Positions 15,492-35,929 of a DNA stretch of 64,000 nucleotides are shown here, piece by piece. Each line of letters starts with the position of its first letter. Positions within the stretch are counted from its first letter, which is position 1. The notes under the pieces were generated by a model, which made no database searches, was not told the origin of the DNA, and worked only from the letters and a program-made list of their open reading frames with translations. The stretch comes from a virus: positions 1-64,000 of the IMG/VR virus record IMGVR_UViG_3300021962_000073, one strand, 5' to 3'. Position numbers and translations under genes: made by a program.

Positions 15492-15797
15492 GTGATGAAA
15501 ATGATTGATAATGTTAATGCAAACACTTTCGCTGATCAAAAAGCTAGGGATTGGTTGGTTGGCGTTCTTCGTGAACAGGCTGTCACTGTTACTTTCACAA
15601 AACAAGATGGCACTGAACGTGTAATGAATTGTACCTTGTATGAAGGTGATATTCCTGTCGAACAAGCACCAAAAGGATCGAGTCGTTCTAAACCAACCGA
15701 AGCTCTTGCTGTTTTTGACATTGAAGCAAAAGGTTGGCGTTCATTTCGTTGGGATGCAATTAAAGAAGTTAAATTTACACTGGGTCAAGCAAAATGA
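15492..15797 (+). CDS. WYL-like SH3 beta-barrel protein
   Basis: VTFTKQDGTERVM.CTL...VFD....WRSFRWD. Confidence 0.7.
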   Translation: MMKMIDNVNANTFADQKARDWLVGVLREQAVTVTFTKQDGTERVMNCTLYEGDIPVEQAPKGSSRSKPTEALAVFDIEAKGWRSFRWDAIKEVKFTLGQAK

Positions 15798-16093
15798 AAA
15801 AGTACATTGTTGAAACTATTTCCACTTTTCGTAATGTTCATGTAATTGAAGCTGAGAATGAGGATCATCTTTTGCAAATTGCAGAAGAGTGTGATCCAAA
15901 TTGGGATGATTGGCTAGGTTCAATTAAGCATGATGTAACTGAATACTCTGAAGAAGCAATCTCAAAGTATAAGACACGAAAATATTTTTGGAATGGTTCC
16001 GTTTTTGTTGATGAAGAAGGATATGTTTGCTATCGAGATGTTGACGGAACAGTTCGAAAATCTAGCTCACATAAAATTGATTTAAACCCTTGA
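15794..16093 (+). CDS. hypothetical protein
   Basis: coupled ORF. Confidence 0.6.
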   Translation: MKKYIVETISTFRNVHVIEAENEDHLLQIAEECDPNWDDWLGSIKHDVTEYSEEAISKYKTRKYFWNGSVFVDEEGYVCYRDVDGTVRKSSSHKIDLNP

Positions 16094-16118
16094 CAAAGAG
16101 AAAAAAAGCATATATAGT
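16090..16118 (+). promoter_or_regulatory. sigma70 promoter of tRNA-array leader
   Basis: TTGACA 16090-16095, 17 nt, TATAGT 16113-16118; predicted +1 ~16125 equals the ATG. Confidence 0.75.
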
Positions 16119-16124
16119 ATTACT

Positions 16125-16241
16125 ATGATTAAAACCAAACATTATTTTAGACCCATAACACGATCAACATCGTGGCAGCCATCCTTTTATCTGGAGATTG
16201 GTAATGCCTGCGATAATAAGATTTTAGGGGTTTGTGTATAG
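16125..16241 (+). CDS. putative attenuator leader peptide (38 aa, all 20 amino acids)
   Basis: MIKTKHYFRPITRSTSWQPSFYLEIGNACDNKILGVCV*; last codons overlap antiterminator arm. Confidence 0.7.
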   Translation: MIKTKHYFRPITRSTSWQPSFYLEIGNACDNKILGVCV

Positions 16242-16272
16242 TTGTAGCATAGTAGAAATTCACACAAACCCC
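16227..16272 (+). promoter_or_regulatory. antiterminator helix
   Basis: GGGGTTTGTGT 16227-16237 perfectly complementary to ACACAAACCCC 16262-16272. Confidence 0.75.
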
Positions 16273-16300
16273 AGACACCAAAAGGTCTCTGGGGTTTTTT
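16266..16300 (+). terminator. intrinsic terminator (attenuator)
   Basis: AAACCCCAGA-c-ACC-AAAA-GGT-c-TCTGGGG followed by T6. Confidence 0.85.
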
Positions 16301-16309
16301 ATTAGTTGT

Positions 16310-16323
16310 TGTTCTTTAAAAAT
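16310..16323 (+). promoter_or_regulatory. boxA-like antitermination site
   Basis: TGTTCTTTAAAAAT vs rrn boxA TGCTCTTTAACAAT. Confidence 0.6.
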
Positions 16324-16335
16324 TTAGTTTTCTAT

Positions 16336-16409
16336 TGGGGTATGGTGAAATGGCATCACACTCGATTTTGATTCAAGTATTCTTGGTTCGATTCCAAGTA
16401 CCCCTGCCA
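16336..16409 (+). tRNA. tRNA-Gln(TTG)
   Basis: cloverleaf, loop TTTTGAT, TTCGATT, CCA. Confidence 0.9.
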
Positions 16410-16416
16410 AAATTTA

Positions 16417-16509
16417 GGAAGTGTGGCAGAGCCCGGTTTAATGCAATGCTCTTGAAAAGCATCGGACGTTAAAAGCGTTCCGTGAGTTCGAATCTCACCG
16501 CTTCCACCA
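16417..16509 (+). tRNA. tRNA-Ser(TGA)
   Basis: ATGCT-CTTGAAA-AGCAT, long variable arm, CCA. Confidence 0.92.
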
Positions 16510-16517
16510 AATTTAAT

Positions 16518-16609
16518 GGAAAGATGGATGAGTGGTTTAAATCGGCACCCTGCTAAGGTGTTGGTTTGCGAAAGCAGGCCCGTGGGTTCGAATCCCACTC
16601 TTTCCACCA
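16518..16609 (+). tRNA. tRNA-Ser(GCT)
   Basis: GCACC-CTGCTAA-GGTGT, long variable arm, CCA. Confidence 0.92.
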
Positions 16610-16615
16610 AACAAT

Positions 16616-16710
16616 GGTAGGTAGCACTGGTGTGCGGCTGAGTCTTATAAGCTCGGGAGATCGGTCAGATGGGCTGAAACGGAAGAGTTCGAATCTCTTA
16701 CCTACTACCA
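16616..16710 (+). tRNA. atypical tRNA with anticodon TAT (Ile?)
   Basis: CTGAGT-CTTATAA-GCTCGG, tiny D-loop, long variable arm, T-arm, CCA. Confidence 0.75.
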
Positions 16711-16717
16711 AATTCAT

Positions 16718-16795
16718 GCACAGGTGGCAGAGTGGCCCAATGCAAGAGTCTGCAAAACTCTAAAACCGTCGGTTCGAATCCGACCCTGTGCTCCA
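16718..16795 (+). tRNA. tRNA-Cys(GCA)
   Basis: AGAGT-CTGCAAA-ACTCT, U73, CCA. Confidence 0.92.
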
Positions 16796-16886
16796 GTTGT
16801 AAAAAAACAACAACAAAAAAGTTGTTGACATAGTTTGTGGAATCTGTATAATAGATTCTGTTGATGATGTAAATGCTCTTTAAAAA
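16795..16886 (+). promoter_or_regulatory. internal tRNA-array promoter with palindrome and boxA
   Basis: AGTTG-N8-CAACA 16795-16812, TTGACA 16825-16830, TATAAT 16847-16852, TGCTCTTTAAAAA 16874-16886. Confidence 0.8.
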
Positions 16887-16898
16887 CTGTTGTTCGAT

Positions 16899-16973
16899 GC
16901 ACCGTTCGTCTATCGGTTAGGACGCTAGCCTTTCACGCTGGAAAGACGAGTTCGATTCTCGTACGGTGTACCA
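16899..16973 (+). tRNA. tRNA-Glu(TTC)
   Basis: CTAGC-CTTTCAC-GCTGG, CCA. Confidence 0.92.
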
Positions 16974-17105
16974 TATTGAAACACACTTACACTGTGGCGC
17001 TTTGTCCGTCCCTGGTTTAAAACGGGATATCGCATAAACAGTTCAAGCCCCGGTCGCTCCGGTCTGCTGTGTAAAAGAGAGACGGTCGAGTGTGTTTCAA
17101 TATGG
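16971..17105 (+). ncRNA. unknown structured RNA 1 (closed by CCATATTGAA.../...TTCAATATGG)
   Basis: ~18-bp terminal stem CCATATTGAAACACACTT/GAGTGTGTTTCAATATGG, internal helices, no ORF. Confidence 0.6.
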
Positions 17106-17179
17106 GCCTATAGCTCAGAGGTCAGAGCAGTGAACTCATAATTCATTGGTCGTAGGTTCGAAACCTACTGGGCCCACCA
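17104..17179 (+). tRNA. tRNA(CAT), probably Ile2 (lysidine)
   Basis: GTGAA-CTCATAA-TTCAT, ileX-like body, CCA. Confidence 0.85.
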
Positions 17180-17185
17180 AAATTC

Positions 17186-17259
17186 GCGGGTATAACTTAG
17201 TGGTAAAGTAACTGGCTTTTAACCAGTAAATCCGAGTTCGATTCTCGGTGCCCGTACCA
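17186..17259 (+). tRNA. tRNA-Lys(TTT)
   Basis: ACTGG-CTTTTAA-CCAGT, CCA. Confidence 0.92.
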
Positions 17260-17264
17260 AATAT

Positions 17265-17351
17265 GGATGCGTAGCCAAATGGTTGACGGCAGCGGGCTGT
17301 AAACCCGTGACATAAGAAACGCTGGTGGTTCGAATCCATCCGCATCCACCA
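17265..17351 (+). tRNA. tRNA-Tyr(GTA)
   Basis: GCGGG-CTGTAAA-CCCGT, long variable region, CCA. Confidence 0.92.
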
Positions 17352-17360
17352 AGTTTAGAT

Positions 17361-17437
17361 GGGGGTCTAGCGAGTAACATCGCTCAGTCTTAAACGACAG
17401 CAAAAGAATGTCGAGAGGACATCCAATTGCGCCCCTT
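17361..17437 (+). ncRNA. unknown tRNA-sized structured RNA
   Basis: GGGG/CCCC closing stem, AGCGA/TCGCT, GTC/GAC, ATGTC/GACAT hairpins; no TTC loop or CCA. Confidence 0.45.
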
Positions 17438-17441
17438 AATC

Positions 17442-17516
17442 GGTTCCATAGTATATCGGCGAGTATAGCGCCCTGTCACGGCGCAGGAACGGGTTCGAGT
17501 CCCGTTGGGACCGCCA
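17442..17516 (+). tRNA. tRNA-Asp(GTC)
   Basis: GCGCC-CTGTCAC-GGCGC, CCA. Confidence 0.92.
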
Positions 17517-17522
17517 GAATGA

Positions 17523-17598
17523 TCCGGAGTAGCACAGCGGTAGTTGCAGCGCACTGTTAATGCGCCTGTCGTTGGTTCGATCCCAACCTCCGGAGCCA
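17523..17598 (+). tRNA. tRNA-Asn(GTT)
   Basis: GCGCA-CTGTTAA-TGCGC, CCA. Confidence 0.92.
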
Positions 17599-17600
17599 AA

Positions 17601-17677
17601 GCCCTCTTACTCCAATTGGTAGAGAGGACGGTCTTAGAAGCCGTAAAGTCTCAGTTCGAATCTGAGAGAGGGCACCA
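17601..17677 (+). tRNA. tRNA-Leu(TAG), short variable loop
   Basis: ACGGT-CTTAGAA-GCCGT, CCA. Confidence 0.85.
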
Positions 17678-17800
17678 TATTGAAATATTCTGAGTAGCTA
17701 CAGCGGAACAACTGATTGCTTGCCAATTCTAGACAAAGCAAGGATCAGCCGTGAAGAGGGGCTATCGCGGATTCAAGTGCCACAGAATGTTTCAATATGA
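17675..17800 (+). ncRNA. unknown structured RNA 2 (homolog of tmRNA intervening segment)
   Basis: terminal stem plus core aligning to 35624-35740 with compensatory changes. Confidence 0.75.
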
Positions 17801-17922
17801 CCATATTGAAGCGCATAATCGATAGTATACTCAGAACAGGAGTGACTGCCTGGTGCGTATACTTGTAGAGAGATGTAAAAAGGCCCCGCTGGTCACGGTT
17901 ATCTCAGTGCGTTTCAATATGG
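17801..17922 (+). ncRNA. unknown structured RNA 3
   Basis: CCATATTGAAGCGCAT/GTGCGTTTCAATATGG stem, AGTATAC/GTATACT, CAGG/CCTG, possible GTGAC/GTCAC pseudoknot. Confidence 0.6.
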
Positions 17923-17932
17923 TTCTGCAAAA

Positions 17933-18055
17933 TTGATGATGGCAAATCCGCCCAACCATCAGGGCGACTACTTAACCCTATTGAACGTCTTGCCAACGAG
18001 GAGTGGAGAATAGGGGAGTCCAAGAGGACTCTTAAACGGGTGATGGTAACCATAC
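17933..18055 (+). ncRNA. possible structured RNA 4
   Basis: TGATGG/CCATCA with loop CGCCC pairing GGGCG; CCCTATT/AATAGGG; GAGTCC/GGACTC. Confidence 0.45.
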
Positions 18056-18061
18056 CTTTTC

Positions 18062-18139
18062 GGGCCTCTAGCTCATGTTGGTTAGAGCAGCGAACTCATA
18101 ATTCGTTGGTGCGCGGTTCGACTCCGCGGGGGCCCACCA
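18062..18139 (+). tRNA. tRNA(CAT), probably Ile2
   Basis: GCGAA-CTCATAA-TTCGT, CCA. Confidence 0.85.
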
Positions 18140-18152
18140 TATATAATGTATT

Positions 18153-18227
18153 GGGCTGCTAGTGATAATGGGAGCACGCCGCCTTTGCACGGCGGAGGTT
18201 GGAGTTCGATCCTCCAGCGGTCCACCA
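18153..18227 (+). tRNA. tRNA-Ala(TGC)
   Basis: G3:U70, CCGCC-TTTGCAC-GGCGG, CCA. Confidence 0.92.
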
Positions 18228-18235
18228 AGTTTTTC

Positions 18236-18310
18236 GCCCCTATAGTTAAATGGCTATAACAGTTGCCTTGTAAGCATCAATTCCTAGTTCGATTCCAGGT
18301 GGGGGCACCA
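18236..18310 (+). tRNA. tRNA-Thr(TGT)
   Basis: loop CTTGTAA, CCA. Confidence 0.9.
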
Positions 18311-18317
18311 AGTTTTA

Positions 18318-18395
18318 CCGAGTGTAGGATAGTCCGGTTATTCCGCCTGCTTTGGGAGCAGGAAATCGTGTGTTCGAATCACACCACTCGGACCA
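18318..18395 (+). tRNA. tRNA-Pro(TGG)
   Basis: CCTGC-TTTGGGA-GCAGG, CCA. Confidence 0.92.
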
Positions 18396-18403
18396 GTTTC
18401 TAT

Positions 18404-18482
18404 TCCGCAGAACCCGAGCAAGGTGCATGGGCTTGACTGTTAATCAATGGTTAGCAGGGTTCGATTCCCTGATGCGGAGCCA
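18404..18482 (+). tRNA. tRNA-Asn(GTT), divergent second copy
   Basis: TTGA-CTGTTAA-TCAA, T-arm, CCA. Confidence 0.8.
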
Positions 18483-18490
18483 ATTTCAGA

Positions 18491-18564
18491 TGCGGGTTGG
18501 AGAAAAGGTATCTCGGGAGTCTCATAAGCTCCAGTTGGTGGTTCGATTCCATCATCCGCTACCA
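18491..18564 (+). tRNA. tRNA-Met(CAT), initiator-like
   Basis: 1:72 mismatch, loop CTCATAA, CCA. Confidence 0.8.
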
Positions 18565-18570
18565 AGTTAC

Positions 18571-18645
18571 GGTTCAATGACGTAGAAAGATGCGTACCGG
18601 TTTCATAAGCCGAGGAGAGTGGAGCGTTACCACTTTGAACCACCA
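18571..18645 (+). tRNA. atypical tRNA(CAT)
   Basis: GGTTCAA/TTGAACC acceptor, loop TTCATAA, T-loop AGCGTTA, CCA. Confidence 0.65.
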
Positions 18646-18654
18646 GGAGATATT

Positions 18655-19395
18655 ATGAATATTGACGAAATTGTTAAAGTACCATATACAACACAACCAA
18701 GAATGATACGAAATACTGGTGAAGTTTTTAATAAAACTCCCGATAAAAAATATTTTGAAGAGAAGAAAATTCAATTAGATAAATTTGGTTATGATTTGTA
18801 TGGTATGAATATACCTTGCATTACAGAAAAAGTTATTGAAAAATGTGAATCTTTTTTAGGTAAACCTGTAACTGGTGATATCGTAGATTTCGCAATGAAC
18901 TTTGAAGAAGATATTGCGATTATGCACCATGGTGTTTTGTCTGCAATTTGTTTTTGTTTTCCCAGTTCTTGGATTCCTTTTTACGGTCTAGACAAAACAC
19001 TGGAAGAAATACACCGACCTGTGGCTGATGGTGATCATCTTCGGCGTGTAAGTTCGAAACTTACAAAGACAATGGCAGATCCTATTCTAGGAAGTTTTCT
19101 TAGATATGTATGGACTATTACAAAAGTTCCAGATTTAAGTAATCATCCTGAAGTAAAACAAAATTATGATGATGCAGAATTAACATTCGATAATCTCTAT
19201 TTTAGATTGGAGAAACAAACAACATTACCATTGAATGATGGTAAGACTAGTTTGTTTTTTGTGAAAGTTGAAGTTGTTCCATTAAAAAATGTTTGGTCAC
19301 CACTAATTAAAGAGAGTATTGATTCTATGAGTGATGCGATTATTCAATATAAAAATTTAAAAGAAATTAAAACGGTCCTTAGTTCAATGGATTAG
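18655..19395 (+). CDS. DUF3445 / heme-dependent oxidative N-demethylase alpha-like protein
   Basis: EEDIAIM..LSAICFCFPSSW..LEEIHRPV..R..WTI..FRLEKQT; AGGAG RBS before 18655. Confidence 0.65.
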   Translation: MNIDEIVKVPYTTQPRMIRNTGEVFNKTPDKKYFEEKKIQLDKFGYDLYGMNIPCITEKVIEKCESFLGKPVTGDIVDFAMNFEEDIAIMHHGVLSAICFCFPSSWIPFYGLDKTLEEIHRPVADGDHLRRVSSKLTKTMADPILGSFLRYVWTITKVPDLSNHPEVKQNYDDAELTFDNLYFRLEKQTTLPLNDGKTSLFFVKVEVVPLKNVWSPLIKESIDSMSDAIIQYKNLKEIKTVLSSMD

Positions 19396-19448
19396 AATCC
19401 CTTGCTACGAACGAGGAGACGGGAGTTCGATTCTCTCAGGACCGGCCA
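19373..19448 (+). tRNA. tRNA-Arg(ACG)
   Basis: CCTTG-CTACGAA-CGAGG, CCA; overlaps end of upstream CDS. Confidence 0.88.
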
Positions 19449-19453
19449 ATTAT

Positions 19454-19528
19454 GCCCCGTTAGCTGAGATGGATTAGCAACGTCTTGATAAGGCGTAGAG
19501 AATGGATCGATACCATTACGGGGTACCA
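19454..19528 (+). tRNA. tRNA-Ile(GAT)
   Basis: ACGTC-TTGATAA-GGCGT, T-loop ATCGATA, CCA. Confidence 0.85.
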
Positions 19529-19533
19529 TCAAT

Positions 19534-19608
19534 CTCGGTGTAGTGTTAATGGCAGCACGAGAGTCTCCAAAACTCCAAGATGCGGTTCGAGTCCGTACAC
19601 CGAGGCCA
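19534..19608 (+). tRNA. tRNA-Trp(CCA)
   Basis: GAGT-CTCCAAA-ACTC, G73, CCA. Confidence 0.9.
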
Positions 19609-19625
19609 TTTTATAGGAGTGAGAT

Positions 19626-20096
19626 ATGTACAACAAAAAAATTAATTTAAATGAAGTGAAAGCATTCATCGATAGTTGTGGTCCTAATACCAAAGTTTAT
19701 CTTGGATGCGATTCTGAGAAAGTTAAAATTAATGGTGTATGGCATGCGGATTATATTATAGCCATTGTTGTACATATGAACAGCAAGCATGGTTGTAAAA
19801 TTTTCGGTCAAATTACTCGTGAACGTGATTATGACCAAGCACGAAATAAACCAAGAATGCGATTGATGAATGAAGTATATAAAGTTGCCGAGATGTATCT
19901 TGAATTAGCGGCAATGATTGATGTTGAAATTGAAGTTCATCTTGACATCAATCCAAATGAAGAGTATAATTCAAATATTGTAATCAATGAGGCGATTGGC
20001 TACATAAAAGGAATGTGTAATGTTGTTCCTCTTGTAAAACCAAATGCTTTTGCGGCTTCATATGCAGCCGATAGATTGAAAAGTTTAGTAGCTTAA
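19626..20096 (+). CDS. RNase H-like YkuK (DUF458) family protein
   Basis: KVYLGCDS, R.RLM.EV, EVHLDIN, AS.AAD. Confidence 0.8.
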   Translation: MYNKKINLNEVKAFIDSCGPNTKVYLGCDSEKVKINGVWHADYIIAIVVHMNSKHGCKIFGQITRERDYDQARNKPRMRLMNEVYKVAEMYLELAAMIDVEIEVHLDINPNEEYNSNIVINEAIGYIKGMCNVVPLVKPNAFAASYAADRLKSLVA

Positions 20097-20098
20097 TT

Positions 20099-20175
20099 GC
20101 GGGTATGGTGTTTAATGGCTAGCACGACAGCCTTCCAAGCTGACAGTATCGGTTCGAATCCGATTACCCGCTCCA
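20099..20175 (+). tRNA. tRNA-Gly(TCC)
   Basis: CAGC-CTTCCAA-GCTG, U73, CCA. Confidence 0.92.
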
Positions 20176-20192
20176 TATTTTTATATAAATGA

Positions 20193-20729
20193 ATGGAACT
20201 TAAATCTTTTGTCAAACATTATGAAAATGTATTGAGCCCCCAAACTTGCGAACGAATAATCCAAGAATTTGAGAACAATCGTTCACATATCACTCAATAC
20301 GATAATGAGCATTACAAGTTTGATCAGTTAGATTTAAATACATCTGGCAATCAACTTTTAGCGAAAGCATTTATACAACAGGTCGTACCATATCTGAAAA
20401 ATTATATTAGTTTGTTGAGTGTTGAACCTTATGTTAAGATTCGAGGTTTTGAAAATGTACGCATCAAAAAATATCTGAAAGGATCAGATTATAAATTCAA
20501 AACTCATGTTGATGTTGATGATAAAGATTCGGCAGTTCGATATTTGATTTTTATTTTGTATTTAAATGATAACAATGGATGTACAACTTTTCCTAATCTA
20601 GGATTGTCTTTCAAACCAAAACAAGGAAGTATGATTATGTTTCCTCCGTTTTGGATGTTTCCTCATTCAGGTGAAACACCGACAGACAATGATAAGTATA
20701 TTATGATGAGTTGTCTTCACTATAGTTAA
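20193..20729 (+). CDS. 2OG-Fe(II) oxygenase
   Basis: HVD..R.L..ILYLND..FPP.W.FPH..KY. Confidence 0.85.
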   Translation: MELKSFVKHYENVLSPQTCERIIQEFENNRSHITQYDNEHYKFDQLDLNTSGNQLLAKAFIQQVVPYLKNYISLLSVEPYVKIRGFENVRIKKYLKGSDYKFKTHVDVDDKDSAVRYLIFILYLNDNNGCTTFPNLGLSFKPKQGSMIMFPPFWMFPHSGETPTDNDKYIMMSCLHYS

Positions 20730-20730
20730 A

Positions 20731-20820
20731 GCAGGAGTGGAGAAATCGGTAAACTCAGTGGACTTAAAATCCACCGGCACTAAAAACGCCTTGCGGGTTC
20801 AAGTCCCGCCTCCTGCACCA
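20731..20820 (+). tRNA. tRNA-Leu(TAA)
   Basis: GTGGA-CTTAAAA-TCCAC, long variable arm, CCA. Confidence 0.92.
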
Positions 20821-20824
20821 CAAC

Positions 20825-20899
20825 CTGACCGTAGTTAAATGGATATAACATGGGTCTTCTAAACCCAGATTCCAGGTTCGATTCCTGGCGGTCGGGCCA
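20825..20899 (+). tRNA. tRNA-Arg(TCT)
   Basis: TGGGT-CTTCTAA-ACCCA, CCA. Confidence 0.92.
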
Positions 20900-20900
20900 C

Positions 20901-21161
20901 CTATACTACAAACTTAACGTATAGTGTGCAATCACCATCAGTTTCTCCCAGAATGGTGATTCTTCCATTTTCAATTTCTACATTTTCTTCTGCGATTTCT
21001 TCAACTTTCTCAGCACTTACGAATAGGCTCTGTACCATCGTTAACTTATAAACGCCTGTCCCTCCGTTTACAACAGAGTTCATAATATCAACTTCATTTT
21101 CATTAAAGAAACCATCTGTTGCTGTAATATCGTCAAATAAAAAATCGTCTACGCTTGTCAT
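20901..21161 (-). CDS. hypothetical acidic protein
   Basis: AAGGA RBS, ORF. Confidence 0.6.
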   Translation of the reverse strand: MTSVDDFLFDDITATDGFFNENEVDIMNSVVNGGTGVYKLTMVQSLFVSAEKVEEIAEENVEIENGRITILGETDGDCTLYVKFVV

Positions 21162-21171
21162 TTTTATGTCC

Positions 21172-21483
21172 TTAGGTTGGTGTGTCTTCTACGATGTTGA
21201 AATTCTTTCCTGATGAAACCACGCAATAAAGATCCTCGGAGATTTTTTCGACAACGGTCCACGTTTTAGTTCTTTTATTTAGAAAAAATATTACTACCGA
21301 TTCGACTATAGTTCTATTATTTGTCGATCTAACTGTTTCTCCGGCAGCAAAAGGTTTTTCATTAAATTCTACCATCACTGCCGTTAAATCTTTCAAATTA
21401 CCACATTCTACTGGTAATAACCTAGTTTGAGCATTTGCGGTTAAAGAGGTTAGAAGAGCCATTAATACTATTAGATATTTCAT
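21172..21483 (-). CDS. hypothetical secreted protein
   Basis: signal peptide MKYLIVLMALLTSLTANA. Confidence 0.6.
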   Translation of the reverse strand: MKYLIVLMALLTSLTANAQTRLLPVECGNLKDLTAVMVEFNEKPFAAGETVRSTNNRTIVESVVIFFLNKRTKTWTVVEKISEDLYCVVSSGKNFNIVEDTPT

Positions 21484-21522
21484 GATCAAGCCCTTATGAA
21501 AAGTATTTGATTAGTTATGTAG

Positions 21523-35360: not shown

Positions 35361-35549
35361 ATGTGGGTTTGGATATTATCCATCACATTATTAGGTACCA
35401 ATCCTGAACATTCAAGAATCGCTAAATTTGAGACTAAAGAAGATTGTCAGAAAGCACTGATTGCTAAAAGAAAAGAATATGAACTAAAAGGTAGAGAAAT
35501 GGTTGGTCATTGTTTTTATGGAAGAACAGATTCTAAAGGTTGGTGGTAA
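35361..35549 (+). CDS. hypothetical protein
   Basis: ORF with hydrophobic N-terminus. Confidence 0.55.
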   Translation: MWVWILSITLLGTNPEHSRIAKFETKEDCQKALIAKRKEYELKGREMVGHCFYGRTDSKGWW

Positions 35550-35560
35550 TAAATAAAGCT

Positions 35561-35908
35561 ATGATCGTATGAAGTAGATCGAAAGGTGTTCTGGACGGCG
35601 GTTCGATTCCGCCCAGGTCCACCAGTAAACTCTTTGAGTGACTACACTGGAACAACTGCAACACTTGCCAAAGTCGACTAAAGCAAGAACCAGCCAGGAA
35701 GTAGGGTCACCGTGATTTCGAGTATCGCAGAGAGTTTACTAATGGGCCTGACCTGGTTTCGACAGGGCAATAAGTAGAGACATGGACGATCCGACACAGA
35801 GAGTCGTAAAAAGTAAATTCAATAAACGCAAATGAAGAAATCTTTGCATTAGCCGCCTAAACACGGCTTAGGGTTTCGGTGGGTTTCCTCGTAACAGAAT
35901 AACCCACC
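35561..35908 (+). ncRNA. ssrA: circularly permuted (two-piece) tmRNA
   Basis: 3' half with T-arm and CAGGTCCACCA (ends 35624) precedes 5' half GGGCCTGACCTGGTTTCGAC (35744); G3:U70; tag 35828-35860 ANEEIFALAA*. Confidence 0.92.
35624..35740 (+). ncRNA. structured RNA forming tmRNA intervening segment (homolog of 17675-17800)
   Basis: AGTAAACTCT/AGAGTTTACT closing stem, shared core, T-arm GTGAT-TTCGAGT-ATCGC. Confidence 0.75.
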
Positions 35909-35929
35909 ATCACTACTAGGAGGTATCAA

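What the first reader, a model, noticed from the sequence alone, without database searches (positions are those of the whole stretch)
16971..17922. Three different RNA cargos bracketed by the same CCATATTGAA...TTCAATATG(G) stem, docked on CCA ends
Seen: 16971-17105, 17675-17800 and 17801-17922 each begin CCATATTGAA and end TTCAATATG. Each forms a 16-18 bp closing stem around ~90-100 nt of mutually dissimilar structured sequence. In the first two the leading CCA is the 3' end of a tRNA, and the first also pairs into the 5' GG of the next tRNA. Inference: a shared processing handle (RNase III-like cleavage, circularisation or protein binding) for a cassette system of small RNAs. It is loosely reminiscent of T4 species I/II RNAs in the T4 tRNA cluster.
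Basis: partly seen in the sequence, partly recalled or inferred. Interest (0 to 1): 0.7.

Follow-up and report, generated by a model that had tools for sequence, protein, structure and literature searches.

The report
Shared-stem RNA cassettes in phage tRNA operons
A T4-like aquatic phage carries three small structured RNAs in its tRNA operon that share one conserved 17-base-pair closing stem, and the same stem encloses at least 150 unrelated RNA 'cargos' in more than 200 other uncultured phage contigs, where they are swapped like cassettes; their function is unknown and no such family is on record in Rfam or in the papers searched.

Summary
Elements 16971-17105, 17675-17800 and 17801-17922 each close with a 16-18 bp stem, CCAUAUUGAA…/…UUCAAUAUGG. 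Two start on the CCA of a tRNA, and one ends in the GG of the next tRNA.

This is a large family, not a local oddity. Two truncated scans of IMG/VR gave 304 elements (256 unique, 63-147 nt) in 203 contigs. They carry about 152 unrelated cargos behind the same stem, CCAUAUUGAA-RYRYAYU / AGURYRY-UUCAAUAUGG.
- G·U wobbles lie on the tRNA strand in 123 of 124 decidable cases.
- The cargos show covariation.
- 48% of elements start exactly on a tRNA CCA.
- None occurs in 185,579 prokaryote genomes, no Rfam family matches, and no paper found describes them.
- A cultured cyanophage, BUCT-ZZ01, carries a variant stem.

Near-identical flanks hold different cargos, both cargos or none, so cassettes are exchanged at the arms.

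Best reading: these are co-transcribed small RNAs whose stem is an RNA-level folding, processing and stability handle. Its identical arms also serve as recombination homology. The enzyme that acts on the stem and the function of the cargos remain unknown. No Ro protein, RNase III, integrase or reverse transcriptase is encoded in complete genomes. T4 species 1 and 2 RNAs share only the genomic context. The scan had already noted the same stem on another genome (e1-6104796).

The parts
16825..16852 (+). Consensus sigma-70-type promoter (TTGACA-16-TATAAT) that heads the tRNA sub-operon holding the three elements
   Evidence: 12 of 12 matches. No + strand terminator-like site between here and 21200.
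16899..16973 (+). tRNA-Glu(UUC). Its 3' CCA (16971-16973) is also the first three bases of element 1.
16971..17105 (+). Element 1 (135 nt). 5' arm 16971-16988, 3' arm 17088-17105, 18 bp. Cargo family with 13 relatives in other viral contigs.
   Evidence: alignment A2: 43 pairs, 4 with compensatory change; 81-99% identity
17104..17179 (+). tRNA-Met(CAU). Its first two G (17104-17105) pair with the CC of element 1's 5' arm.
17601..17677 (+). tRNA-Leu(UAG). Its CCA (17675-17677) begins element 2.
17675..17800 (+). Element 2 (126 nt). Arms 17676-17692 and 17783-17799, 17 bp including a U·G wobble. It is absent from the same site in L118 and present alone in L072.
17801..17922 (+). Element 3 (122 nt), directly abutting element 2. 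Arms 17801-17816 and 17907-17922, 16 bp. Cargo family with about 15 relatives.
   Evidence: (alignment A1: 36 pairs, 6 with compensatory change)
19626..20096 (+). DUF458/YkuK RNase H-fold protein inside the tRNA operon. It is the protein family most often found next to bracket elements, and is a candidate processing nuclease, not a shown one.

Best explanation
The three elements belong to a large, undescribed family of phage small RNAs that are transcribed as part of tRNA operons. Each consists of a nearly universal helix of 17-18 bp that encloses a variable, independently folded cargo of about 30-110 nt. The helix is 5'-CCAUAUUGAA-RYRYAYU paired with AGURYRY-UUCAAUAUGG-3', and is usually extended by a pair between a purine at -1 and a U at +1.

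Shown:
- The helix is selected at the RNA level on the tRNA strand.
- The cargos are conserved structured RNAs.
- About half of the elements start exactly on the CCA of the upstream tRNA, and about one in six end in the first G(G) of the next tRNA.
- Cassettes are replaced, added and lost between otherwise near-identical flanks.

Inferred mechanism: in the polycistronic precursor the helix brings the two ends of the cargo together. This insulates cargo folding from the neighbouring tRNAs and places both boundaries where the normal tRNA-maturation enzymes act. These are 3' trimming of the upstream tRNA back to CCA and RNase P cleavage at the downstream tRNA. Where no tRNA abuts, as at the junction of elements 2 and 3, a helix-specific endonuclease would have to cut. 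Candidates are host RNase III, RNase E in the A/U-rich outer part, or the phage's own YkuK-like RNase H-fold protein. The released hairpin-closed RNA would resist exonucleases, and its activity would lie in the cargo.

At the DNA level the identical arms act as portable homology. The recombination-proficient T4-type phages can therefore shuffle RNA cargos among tRNA slots and among phages.
For: Family size and diversity: 304 elements, 256 unique, in 203 contigs, with about 152 cargo clusters.

RNA-level helix: elements were found with a strand-symmetric pattern, and the strand that carries G·U rather than A·C equals the tRNA strand in 123 of 124 cases. Position 16 is U·G in 88 of 120 elements and position 11 is G·U in 52 of 120. 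Variants of the outer 10 bp keep pairing, for example G8-C changed to C-G or A-U.

Cargos are real RNAs: covariation in 20 of 38 pairs (A3), 6 of 36 (A1) and 4 of 43 (A2).

Docking: 146 of 304 elements overlap an upstream tRNA by exactly the CCA, 48 of 304 overlap the next tRNA, and 290 of 304 lie within 1.5 kb of a tRNA.

Co-transcription: a consensus promoter and no terminator. RNA-library contigs of relatives carry tRNA plus bracket (weak).

Shuffling: the same cargo family sits behind Thr, Val, Gln, Tyr, Leu and Arg tRNAs. The window has tRNA-Leu-el2-el3-X, L118 has tRNA-Leu-el3, L072 has tRNA-el2-X and L109 has tRNA-el3-X, with flanks 92-99% identical. Sixty-five further replacements and 7 empty sites were found. 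An RNA contig shows the el3-type cargo behind tRNA-Glu, where the window has el1.

Phage-specific: 28 hits in 596 Gb of prokaryote genomes, and none is a true element. Twenty-seven have stems of only 10-13 bp without the RYRYAYU block, and L256 is a perfect palindrome of 30 bp or more, also without that block.

The handle is conserved across phages whose DUF458 proteins share only a median 64% identity.
Against: No RNA ends were mapped, because only assembled contigs from RNA libraries could be laid. Excision, the enzymes involved and the stability of the product are therefore all inference.

A generic processing or stability stem does not by itself explain why CCAUA…UAUGG and RYRYAYU/AGURYRY are kept across divergent phages. 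That pattern fits a sequence-specific partner at least as well.

The best candidate phage protein, DUF458, is absent from one complete bracket-bearing genome (G021). It is present in KVP40 and DLP6, which lack recurrent brackets. No phage RNase III was found.

The recombination role could be a by-product rather than a selected function.

The compensation statistics are biased, because that search required a stem.
Confidence: 0.55

Rival explanations
1. The helix is the docking site of a dedicated protein, from the phage or the host, which forms an RNP. The conserved stem would be the constant 'adaptor' and the cargo the variable effector, such as an aptamer, decoy or tether. This would work like Y RNAs on Ro60/Rsr. 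Processing would be secondary.
For: Two sequence-conserved blocks (CCAUA/UAUGG and A-RYRYAYU/AGURYRY-U) are separated by 3-4 freely covarying base pairs. Conserved wobble pairs sit at fixed positions. The handle is conserved although the phages are divergent. The stem-plus-variable-module architecture matches. Nine of 256 cargos are tRNA-like, with a T-arm abutting the 3' arm, as in the bacterial Y RNA YrlA. BUCT-ZZ01 has its own variant of the stem shared by several cargos in one genome.
Against: No TROVE/Ro protein in the window's contig, in one complete bracket genome, or in BUCT-ZZ01. The Rfam YrlA model does not match any element. No protein family co-occurs strictly with the bracket: DUF458 is in 26 of 50 records and is also found without brackets. 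One genome can hold two stem versions, UUGAA and UAAAA.
Confidence: 0.2
2. The element acts on its neighbouring tRNA. By pairing UGG(U) with (N)CCA it sequesters the 3' end of the upstream tRNA, and the 5' GG of the next one, in the precursor. This would time or control tRNA maturation. After release it might capture uncharged NCCA ends in trans, as the T-box bulge UGGN does.
For: 48% of elements share the CCA with a tRNA. The base at -1, the discriminator when docked, is a purine in 86% and the base at +1 is U in 84%, which extends the pairing to NCCA:UGGU. 16% of elements also pair into the next tRNA's first G(G).
Against: About half of the elements are not docked on any tRNA yet keep CCA…UGG. 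This reading does not explain why there are more than 150 conserved, covarying cargos. Elements are gained and lost behind the same tRNA with no change in that tRNA.
Confidence: 0.1
3. The arms are terminal inverted repeats or folded recombination sites of a DNA mobile element, MITE-like or integron attC-like. The RNA would be irrelevant.
For: The arms are inverted repeats. Whole units are present or absent between identical flanks. One occupied/empty pair shows an 8-nt direct repeat, ATACCATA.
Against: The strand asymmetry of G·U pairs follows the tRNA strand in 123 of 124 cases. The interiors are not copies of one element but about 152 unrelated, covarying RNAs. No tyrosine integrase or reverse transcriptase is found in five complete genomes. 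No transposase appears among the ten commonest neighbour families that were annotated. The 8-nt repeat includes the arm's own CCATA, as expected for microhomology deletion rather than target duplication. attC core sites (GTTRRRY) are absent from the arms.
Confidence: 0.05

Closest known systems
T4 stable RNAs species 1 and 2 (rnaC, rnaD)
   Same: Small, stable, non-tRNA RNAs of about 120-140 nt encoded inside a T4-type phage tRNA cluster and co-transcribed with tRNAs. Their function is unknown (annotation of NC_000866). rnaC has a T-arm-like hairpin, as a few of the cargos here do.
   Different: They have no CCAUAUUGAA bracket and no long closing stem. rnaD does not fold better than shuffled sequence (z = -0.83). 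There is no sequence similarity to the window's elements. They do not form a multi-cargo family.
Y RNAs / bacterial YrlA with Ro60 (Rsr)
   Same: The 5' and 3' ends pair into a conserved stem that carries a variable module. Some modules are tRNA-like (own knowledge of the family; tRNA-like cargos).
   Different: No TROVE protein is encoded. The Rfam YrlA model does not match the elements. The stem sequence differs. The elements are docked on tRNA CCA ends inside tRNA operons.
PeSL cassettes of T4-type phages (Arbiol et al. 2010, PMC2839356; Comeau et al. 2014, PMC4122927)
   Same: Short conserved motifs are repeated through a plastic region of T4-type genomes. Recombination between them replaces, inserts and deletes the modules that lie between.
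   Different: PeSLs are promoter plus terminator stem-loops flanking protein genes. Here the motif is a split helix with no promoter or U-tract. It flanks RNA cargos and is selected as RNA structure.
RNase III processing stems that bracket rRNAs (and some phage early RNAs)
   Same: A long helix formed by sequences on both sides of a functional RNA within a polycistronic precursor. This is the model for how the handle may be cut (established knowledge).
   Different: rRNA stems are not a shared sequence reused for many unrelated products. Cleavage here is untested. No phage RNase III was found.
Integron attC gene cassettes
   Same: Imperfect inverted repeats of similar size with conserved ends and a variable centre. 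The logic is one of cassettes.
   Different: No integrase and no GTTRRRY core sites. The 'centre' is itself the product, a structured RNA, and the elements lie in tRNA operons of lytic-type phages.

Membership tests
Any Rfam 15 family | Match to a curated covariance model | tested here: not met
   Scans at E-value thresholds of 0.1 to 1 covered the window 15500-21500 and 16 related loci holding more than 30 elements. They gave only tRNA, tmRNA and GOLLD matches plus chance hits, none listed over the elements checked.
Y RNA / YrlA-Rsr | Partner Ro60/Rsr (TROVE domain) protein | tested here: not met
   PF05731 is absent from G000, complete genome G021, BUCT-ZZ01, KVP40 and DLP6, while the controls were positive. 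A host-encoded Rsr cannot be excluded.
Y RNA / YrlA-Rsr | Terminal stem from the 5' and 3' ends carrying a variable or tRNA-like module | tested here: met
   17-18 bp terminal stem in all elements. tRNA-like cargos in 9 of 256.
Y RNA / YrlA-Rsr | Conserved Ro-binding helix sequence, or a match to the YrlA model | tested here: not met
   RF02553 matches only a tRNA pair at E = 0.023, and matches no element.
T4 rnaC/rnaD-type stable RNAs | Sequence or structure homology to T4 species 1 or 2 RNA | tested here: not met
   The folds and sequence of T4 70908-71171 lack the bracket. blastn of el1 and el3 against 50,697 phage records gave no match.
T4 rnaC/rnaD-type stable RNAs | Non-tRNA small RNA gene within a T4-type tRNA cluster | tested here: met
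   (T4-like structural genes)
Integron attC cassette | IntI-type tyrosine recombinase | tested here: not met
   PF00589 is absent from five complete or near-complete bracket-bearing genomes.
Retron msr-msd | Reverse transcriptase next to an RNA closed by inverted repeats | tested here: not met
   PF00078 is absent from the same five genomes.
MITE / TIR transposon | Copies share one interior, are orientation-neutral and carry target-site duplications | tested here: not met
   About 152 unrelated interiors. Orientation follows the tRNAs in 123 of 124 cases. The single direct repeat seen overlaps the arm itself.
PeSL recombination cassettes | Composite early promoter plus terminator stem-loop | tested here: not met
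   No promoter or terminator consensus within the elements. The arms are separated by the cargo.
PeSL recombination cassettes | Module replacement or indels bounded by the repeated motif between closely related phages | tested here: met
   65 replacements and 7 empty sites between flanks that mostly share 80-100% identity. The el2/el3 series in the window, L118, L072 and L109 is one example.
RNase III processing stem | Staggered double-strand cleavage within the helix | not testable with these tools
   Only contigs were available from RNA libraries. No phage-encoded RNase III.

The most novel reading that the evidence does not exclude
The bracket is the constant adaptor of a phage 'RNA cassette library'. 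A still unidentified factor would recognise the two conserved blocks of the helix and thereby process, stabilise or deploy any cargo placed inside it. The 150 or more cargos would be a rapidly exchanged arsenal of aptamer-like or decoy RNAs, for example tRNA mimics and binders of host defence or translation factors. Phages would trade them through the arms. In effect this would be an RNA-gene counterpart of an integron or an anti-defence island.
Probability: 0.25. Interest if true: 0.92.

Novelty: new variant of a known kind. Interest (0 to 1): 0.8.

Why it matters
Phage tRNA clusters are usually read as tRNAs plus spacers. This result shows that in a broad group of aquatic T4-like phages many of the 'spacers' are genes. 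They form a family of structured RNAs built on a single helix that accepts at least 150 different inserts and is exchanged between phages.

Four consequences follow:
- It is a large, unannotated class of phage non-coding RNAs to add to GOLLD and ROOL, which also lie near phage tRNAs.
- It is a natural, evolution-tested RNA scaffold for expressing arbitrary structured RNAs from a tRNA operon. Bioengineers build such scaffolds artificially.
- It offers a new window on how phage RNA genes are shuffled.
- It yields a list of conserved cargos, some of them tRNA mimics, whose targets may include host defence or translation factors.

A cultured phage-host pair (BUCT-ZZ01 on Synechococcus elongatus PCC 7942) carries a variant of the family, so the questions can be tested directly.

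Tried and rejected
- Rfam, at evalue and gathering thresholds, on the window and 16 loci: no family for the elements.
- blastn of the whole region, el1 and el3 against 50,697 phage records: only tRNA pieces or nothing.
- Literature searches by the arm sequences and by several keyword sets: nothing relevant.
- Scan of 185,579 prokaryote genomes: 28 hits, about the number expected by chance, and none is a true element. Twenty-seven have stems of 10-13 bp. L256 is a perfect palindrome of 30 bp or more without the RYRYAYU block, perhaps an assembly artefact.
- Y RNA/Ro idea: no TROVE protein.
- Phage RNase III: none. Integrase: none. Reverse transcriptase: none.
- T4 rnaC and rnaD: no bracket.
- DUF458/YkuK as the cognate nuclease. 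It is the commonest neighbour (54 of 203 loci; 26 of 50 records; 4 of 5 complete genomes). But it is missing from complete genome G021 and present in KVP40 and DLP6, which have no recurrent bracket. The link may therefore be to tRNA clusters in general. Its model (pLDDT 87) gives only weak RNase H-superfamily matches.
- RNA evidence: four metatranscriptome runs hold contigs of relatives' tRNA clusters including brackets. Contigs cannot give ends, strand or level, and DNA carry-over cannot be excluded.
- Anticodon-stem-loop decoy idea: ASL-like hairpins occur in 19 of 256 cargos against 7.9±2.3 in shuffles. This is too few to be general, and the control is weak.
- The compensation and G·U/A·C counts come from a search that required pairing, so they are not used as independent proof. 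The unbiased strand test is.
Full report
**1. What is in the window**

The window comes from a 77,977-bp IMG/VR viral contig estimated to be about 48% complete. It belongs to a T4-like myophage. It has gp6-, gp5-, gp25/53-like baseplate genes, gp32, RNase H and tail tube genes. Its nearest cultured relatives are Methylophilales phage Melnitz and the Pelagibacter phages Mosig and HTVC008M, at about 40% amino-acid identity over gp6. Its permuted tmRNA scores as betaproteobacterial (RF01850, 132.8 bits).

Bases 16336-20899 hold 24 tRNA genes on the + strand. They lie behind consensus promoters at 16090-16118 and 16825-16852, and no + strand terminator-like site is found in between.

**2.

- CCATATTGAA and its complement occur as three pairs at 16971/17096, 17675/17791 (one mismatch) and 17801/17913.
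- Each unit folds with a closing stem of 18, 17 or 16 bp. The z-scores are -4.1, -3.7 and -4.5, and none of 200 shuffles folds as well.
- tRNA-Glu ends at 16973 and tRNA-Leu at 17677, so each CCA is also the start of an element.
- tRNA-Met starts at 17104, so its GG closes element 1.
- Elements 2 and 3 abut with no spacer.

**3. It is a large family**

A second scan for cargos of 60-90 nt stopped at 120. After removing chance hits (stems under 15 bp), the 227 loci hold 304 elements. Of these 256 are unique. They are 63-147 nt long, sit in 203 contigs, and fall into about 152 cargo clusters with no detectable similarity to one another. Contigs with elements carry one to four each.

The window's el1, el3 and el2 have 13, about 15 and 2 relatives.

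The conserved helix is 17 bp: CCAUAUUGAA-R-Y-R-Y-A-Y-U paired with A-G-U-R-Y-R-Y-UUCAAUAUGG. Position 16 is U·G in 88 of 120 elements and position 11 is G·U in 52 of 120. The base before the element is a purine in 86% and the base after it is U in 84%, which adds a further pair.

**4. The helix is selected as RNA, on the tRNA strand**

The search pattern is strand-symmetric. Even so, the strand on which mismatches read as G·U rather than A·C is the strand of the nearby tRNAs in 123 of 124 decidable cases.

The outer ten pairs, which my scans had fixed, also vary in additional elements in the same loci. Examples are CCAUAUAAAA/UUUUUAUAUGG, CCAUUUUGAA/UUCAAAAUGG and CCAUAUUCAA/UUGAAUAUGG. Variation is greatest at positions 6-9, while CCAUA/UAUGG and the RYRYAYU block stay. 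That search required pairing, so I use it only to show that variants exist.

The phages are not close relatives. Their DUF458 proteins share a median 64% identity, ranging from 49 to 100%. A neutral 17-mer would not survive that divergence.

**5. The cargos are genuine structured RNAs**

Consensus folds of three cargo families show compensatory changes in 20 of 38 pairs (21 sequences), 6 of 36 (el3 family) and 4 of 43 (el1 family).

Nine of 256 cargos carry a tRNA-type T-arm, against 0.65 expected. In all nine it lies 0-4 nt from the 3' arm, giving cloverleaf-like four-way junctions whose 'acceptor stem' is the bracket.

No Rfam family matches any element examined.

**6. Docking and context**

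- 290 of 304 elements lie within 1.5 kb of a tRNA.
- 146 of 304 overlap an upstream tRNA by exactly its CCA.
- 48 of 304 overlap the first one or two bases of the next tRNA.
- The docking tRNA is not fixed. One cargo family is found behind Thr, Val, Gln, Tyr, Leu and Arg tRNAs.

**7. Cassette exchange**

I searched for other loci that match both 90-nt flanks of each element. This gave 164 cases with the same-sized element, 65 with something of a different length and 7 empty sites.

The window itself is part of a clear series. The window has tRNA-Leu-el2-el3-X. L118 has tRNA-Leu-el3. L072 has tRNA-el2-X. L109 has tRNA-el3-X. The breakpoints are indistinguishable from the arm ends.

An RNA-library contig of a relative carries the el3-type cargo behind tRNA-Glu, where the window has el1.

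One occupied/empty pair (L065 versus L142, L060 and L007) differs by the element plus eight bases, bounded by the direct repeat ATACCATA. That repeat includes the arm's own start, as expected from microhomology recombination.

This behaviour parallels the PeSL-mediated modular shuffling described for T4-type phages (PMC2839356, PMC4122927). The motif here, however, is a split RNA helix rather than a promoter-terminator unit.

**8. Distribution**

In 185,579 prokaryote genomes (596 Gb) the pattern occurs 28 times, about the chance expectation, and none is a true element. Twenty-seven have a stem of only 10-13 bp. L256 is a perfect palindrome of 30 bp or more that lacks the RYRYAYU block. The family therefore appears confined to phages.

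No cultured phage matches the window's cargos. Synechococcus phage BUCT-ZZ01, whose host is S. elongatus PCC 7942, has at least five elements with a variant stem (CCAUAUUAAAGCAUGC and relatives, 14-23 bp). All are co-oriented with its tRNAs and next to them.

DNA runs that hold the window region are marine, estuarine, lake and other freshwater metagenomes.

**9. Proteins**

The family most often found beside the elements is a DUF458/YkuK RNase H-fold protein (window 19626-20096).
- It is present in 54 of 203 loci, in 26 of 50 whole records and in 4 of 5 complete genomes.
- It has invariant acidic residues.
- Its model is confident (pLDDT 87) but resembles NurA, EndoV, RNase HI and PIWI only weakly. 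This agrees with its published assignment to the RNase H-like superfamily, with function unknown (PMC3985635).
- It is not bracket-specific. Complete genome G021 lacks it, and KVP40 and DLP6 have it in or near their tRNA clusters without recurrent brackets.

Complete bracket-bearing genomes encode no RNase III, tyrosine integrase or reverse transcriptase. No Ro/TROVE protein was found.

**10. Interpretation**

*Shown.* This is a phage-specific family of co-oriented, tRNA-operon-embedded structured RNAs that share one RNA-level helix, are docked on tRNA ends and are exchanged as cassettes.

*Inferred (confidence about 0.55).* The helix is a folding, processing and stability handle. It places both cargo boundaries at sites already serviced by tRNA 3' trimming and RNase P. 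It insulates the cargo's folding from its neighbours. It leaves a hairpin-closed product that resists exonucleases. Where two elements abut, as el2 and el3 do, an endonuclease acting on or near the helix is needed. Candidates are host RNase III, RNase E (the outer CCA-U|AUU resembles its preferred site; this rests on my own knowledge and is untested) or the DUF458 protein. The identical arms double as recombination homology.

*Main rival (0.2).* A sequence-specific protein binds the helix, Y RNA-like. This would better explain the two conserved blocks and the fixed wobble pairs.

*Lesser rivals.* Control or capture of tRNA NCCA ends (0.1), and a purely DNA-level mobile element (0.05).

**11. 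Comparison with the known, and novelty**

The elements fail the defining tests for Rfam families, Y RNA/Rsr, T4 rnaC/rnaD homology, attC cassettes, retrons, MITEs and PeSLs (see the membership table). They share single traits with several of these. I found no description of them in 8.4 million papers and preprints, searching by sequence or by keyword.

I rate the family as a new variant of known kinds: stable RNAs of phage tRNA operons, processing-stem-bracketed RNAs, and repeat-mediated module shuffling. There is a substantial chance (about 0.25) that it is a new kind of system with a dedicated handle-reading factor.

The first stage of this scan noted the same stem on another genome (e1-6104796), which agrees with the breadth found here.

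Noticed in passing
window 35520-35928 (+): Phage-encoded circularly permuted (two-piece) tmRNA that scores as the Betaproteobacteria type (RF01850 132.8 bits; RF04321 126.3 bits). ARAGORN gives the tag ANEEIFALAA. This suggests a betaproteobacterial host. A relative has the same (L089:8258-8602), and BUCT-ZZ01 has one that overlaps a bracket element (L125:13077-13495).
   Followed up: partly
window 19626-20096 (+): DUF458/YkuK RNase H-fold protein embedded among the tRNAs. It is the commonest neighbour of bracket elements, and also sits in or near the tRNA clusters of KVP40, Stenotrophomonas phage DLP6 and BUCT-ZZ01. Its acidic residues are invariant. It is possibly a phage tRNA-operon RNA-processing nuclease.
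   Followed up: partly
L227:6851-7312 (+); fragments at L147:1-180 (-) and L169:10286-10556 (+): GOLLD RNA (full length, 200.6 bits) lies in the tRNA regions of phages that also carry bracket elements. No GOLLD was found in the window itself.
   Followed up: no
window 17923-18061 (+): A 139-nt spacer without a bracket, directly after element 3. It is conserved at 80-93% identity in L072, L069, L109 and L206 and is probably another small RNA. Its fold z-score is only -2.2.
   Followed up: partly
window 17352-17441 (+): A 90-nt structured spacer between tRNA-Tyr and tRNA-Asp (z = -3.0) with no bracket. In L118 the same slot holds a 79-nt bracket element, and in L067 and L117 it holds 257 nt.
   Followed up: partly
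L008:3960-4550 (+) and 43 other loci: A calcineurin-like phosphoesterase (Metallophos) of about 196 aa is the second commonest protein next to bracket elements. It might act on RNA ends, but this was not examined. No homologue was found in the part of the window compared.
   Followed up: no
window 18619-19395 and 20193-20729 (+): A HODM_asu-like (DUF3445) protein and a 2OG-Fe(II) oxygenase are interleaved with tRNA genes. They are possible RNA or nucleoside-modifying enzymes.
   Followed up: no
window 16616-16710 (+): A long-arm tRNA with anticodon UAU. It scores better with the tRNA-Sec model (30.6 bits, below threshold) than with the tRNA model. Similar long tRNAs recur in related loci.
   Followed up: no
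L263:6031-6131 (KVP40) and L125:4180-4279 (BUCT-ZZ01): A different 20-bp helix formed by the sequences flanking a tRNA-His gene is present in both phages. It may be a processing stem around tRNA-His.
   Followed up: no
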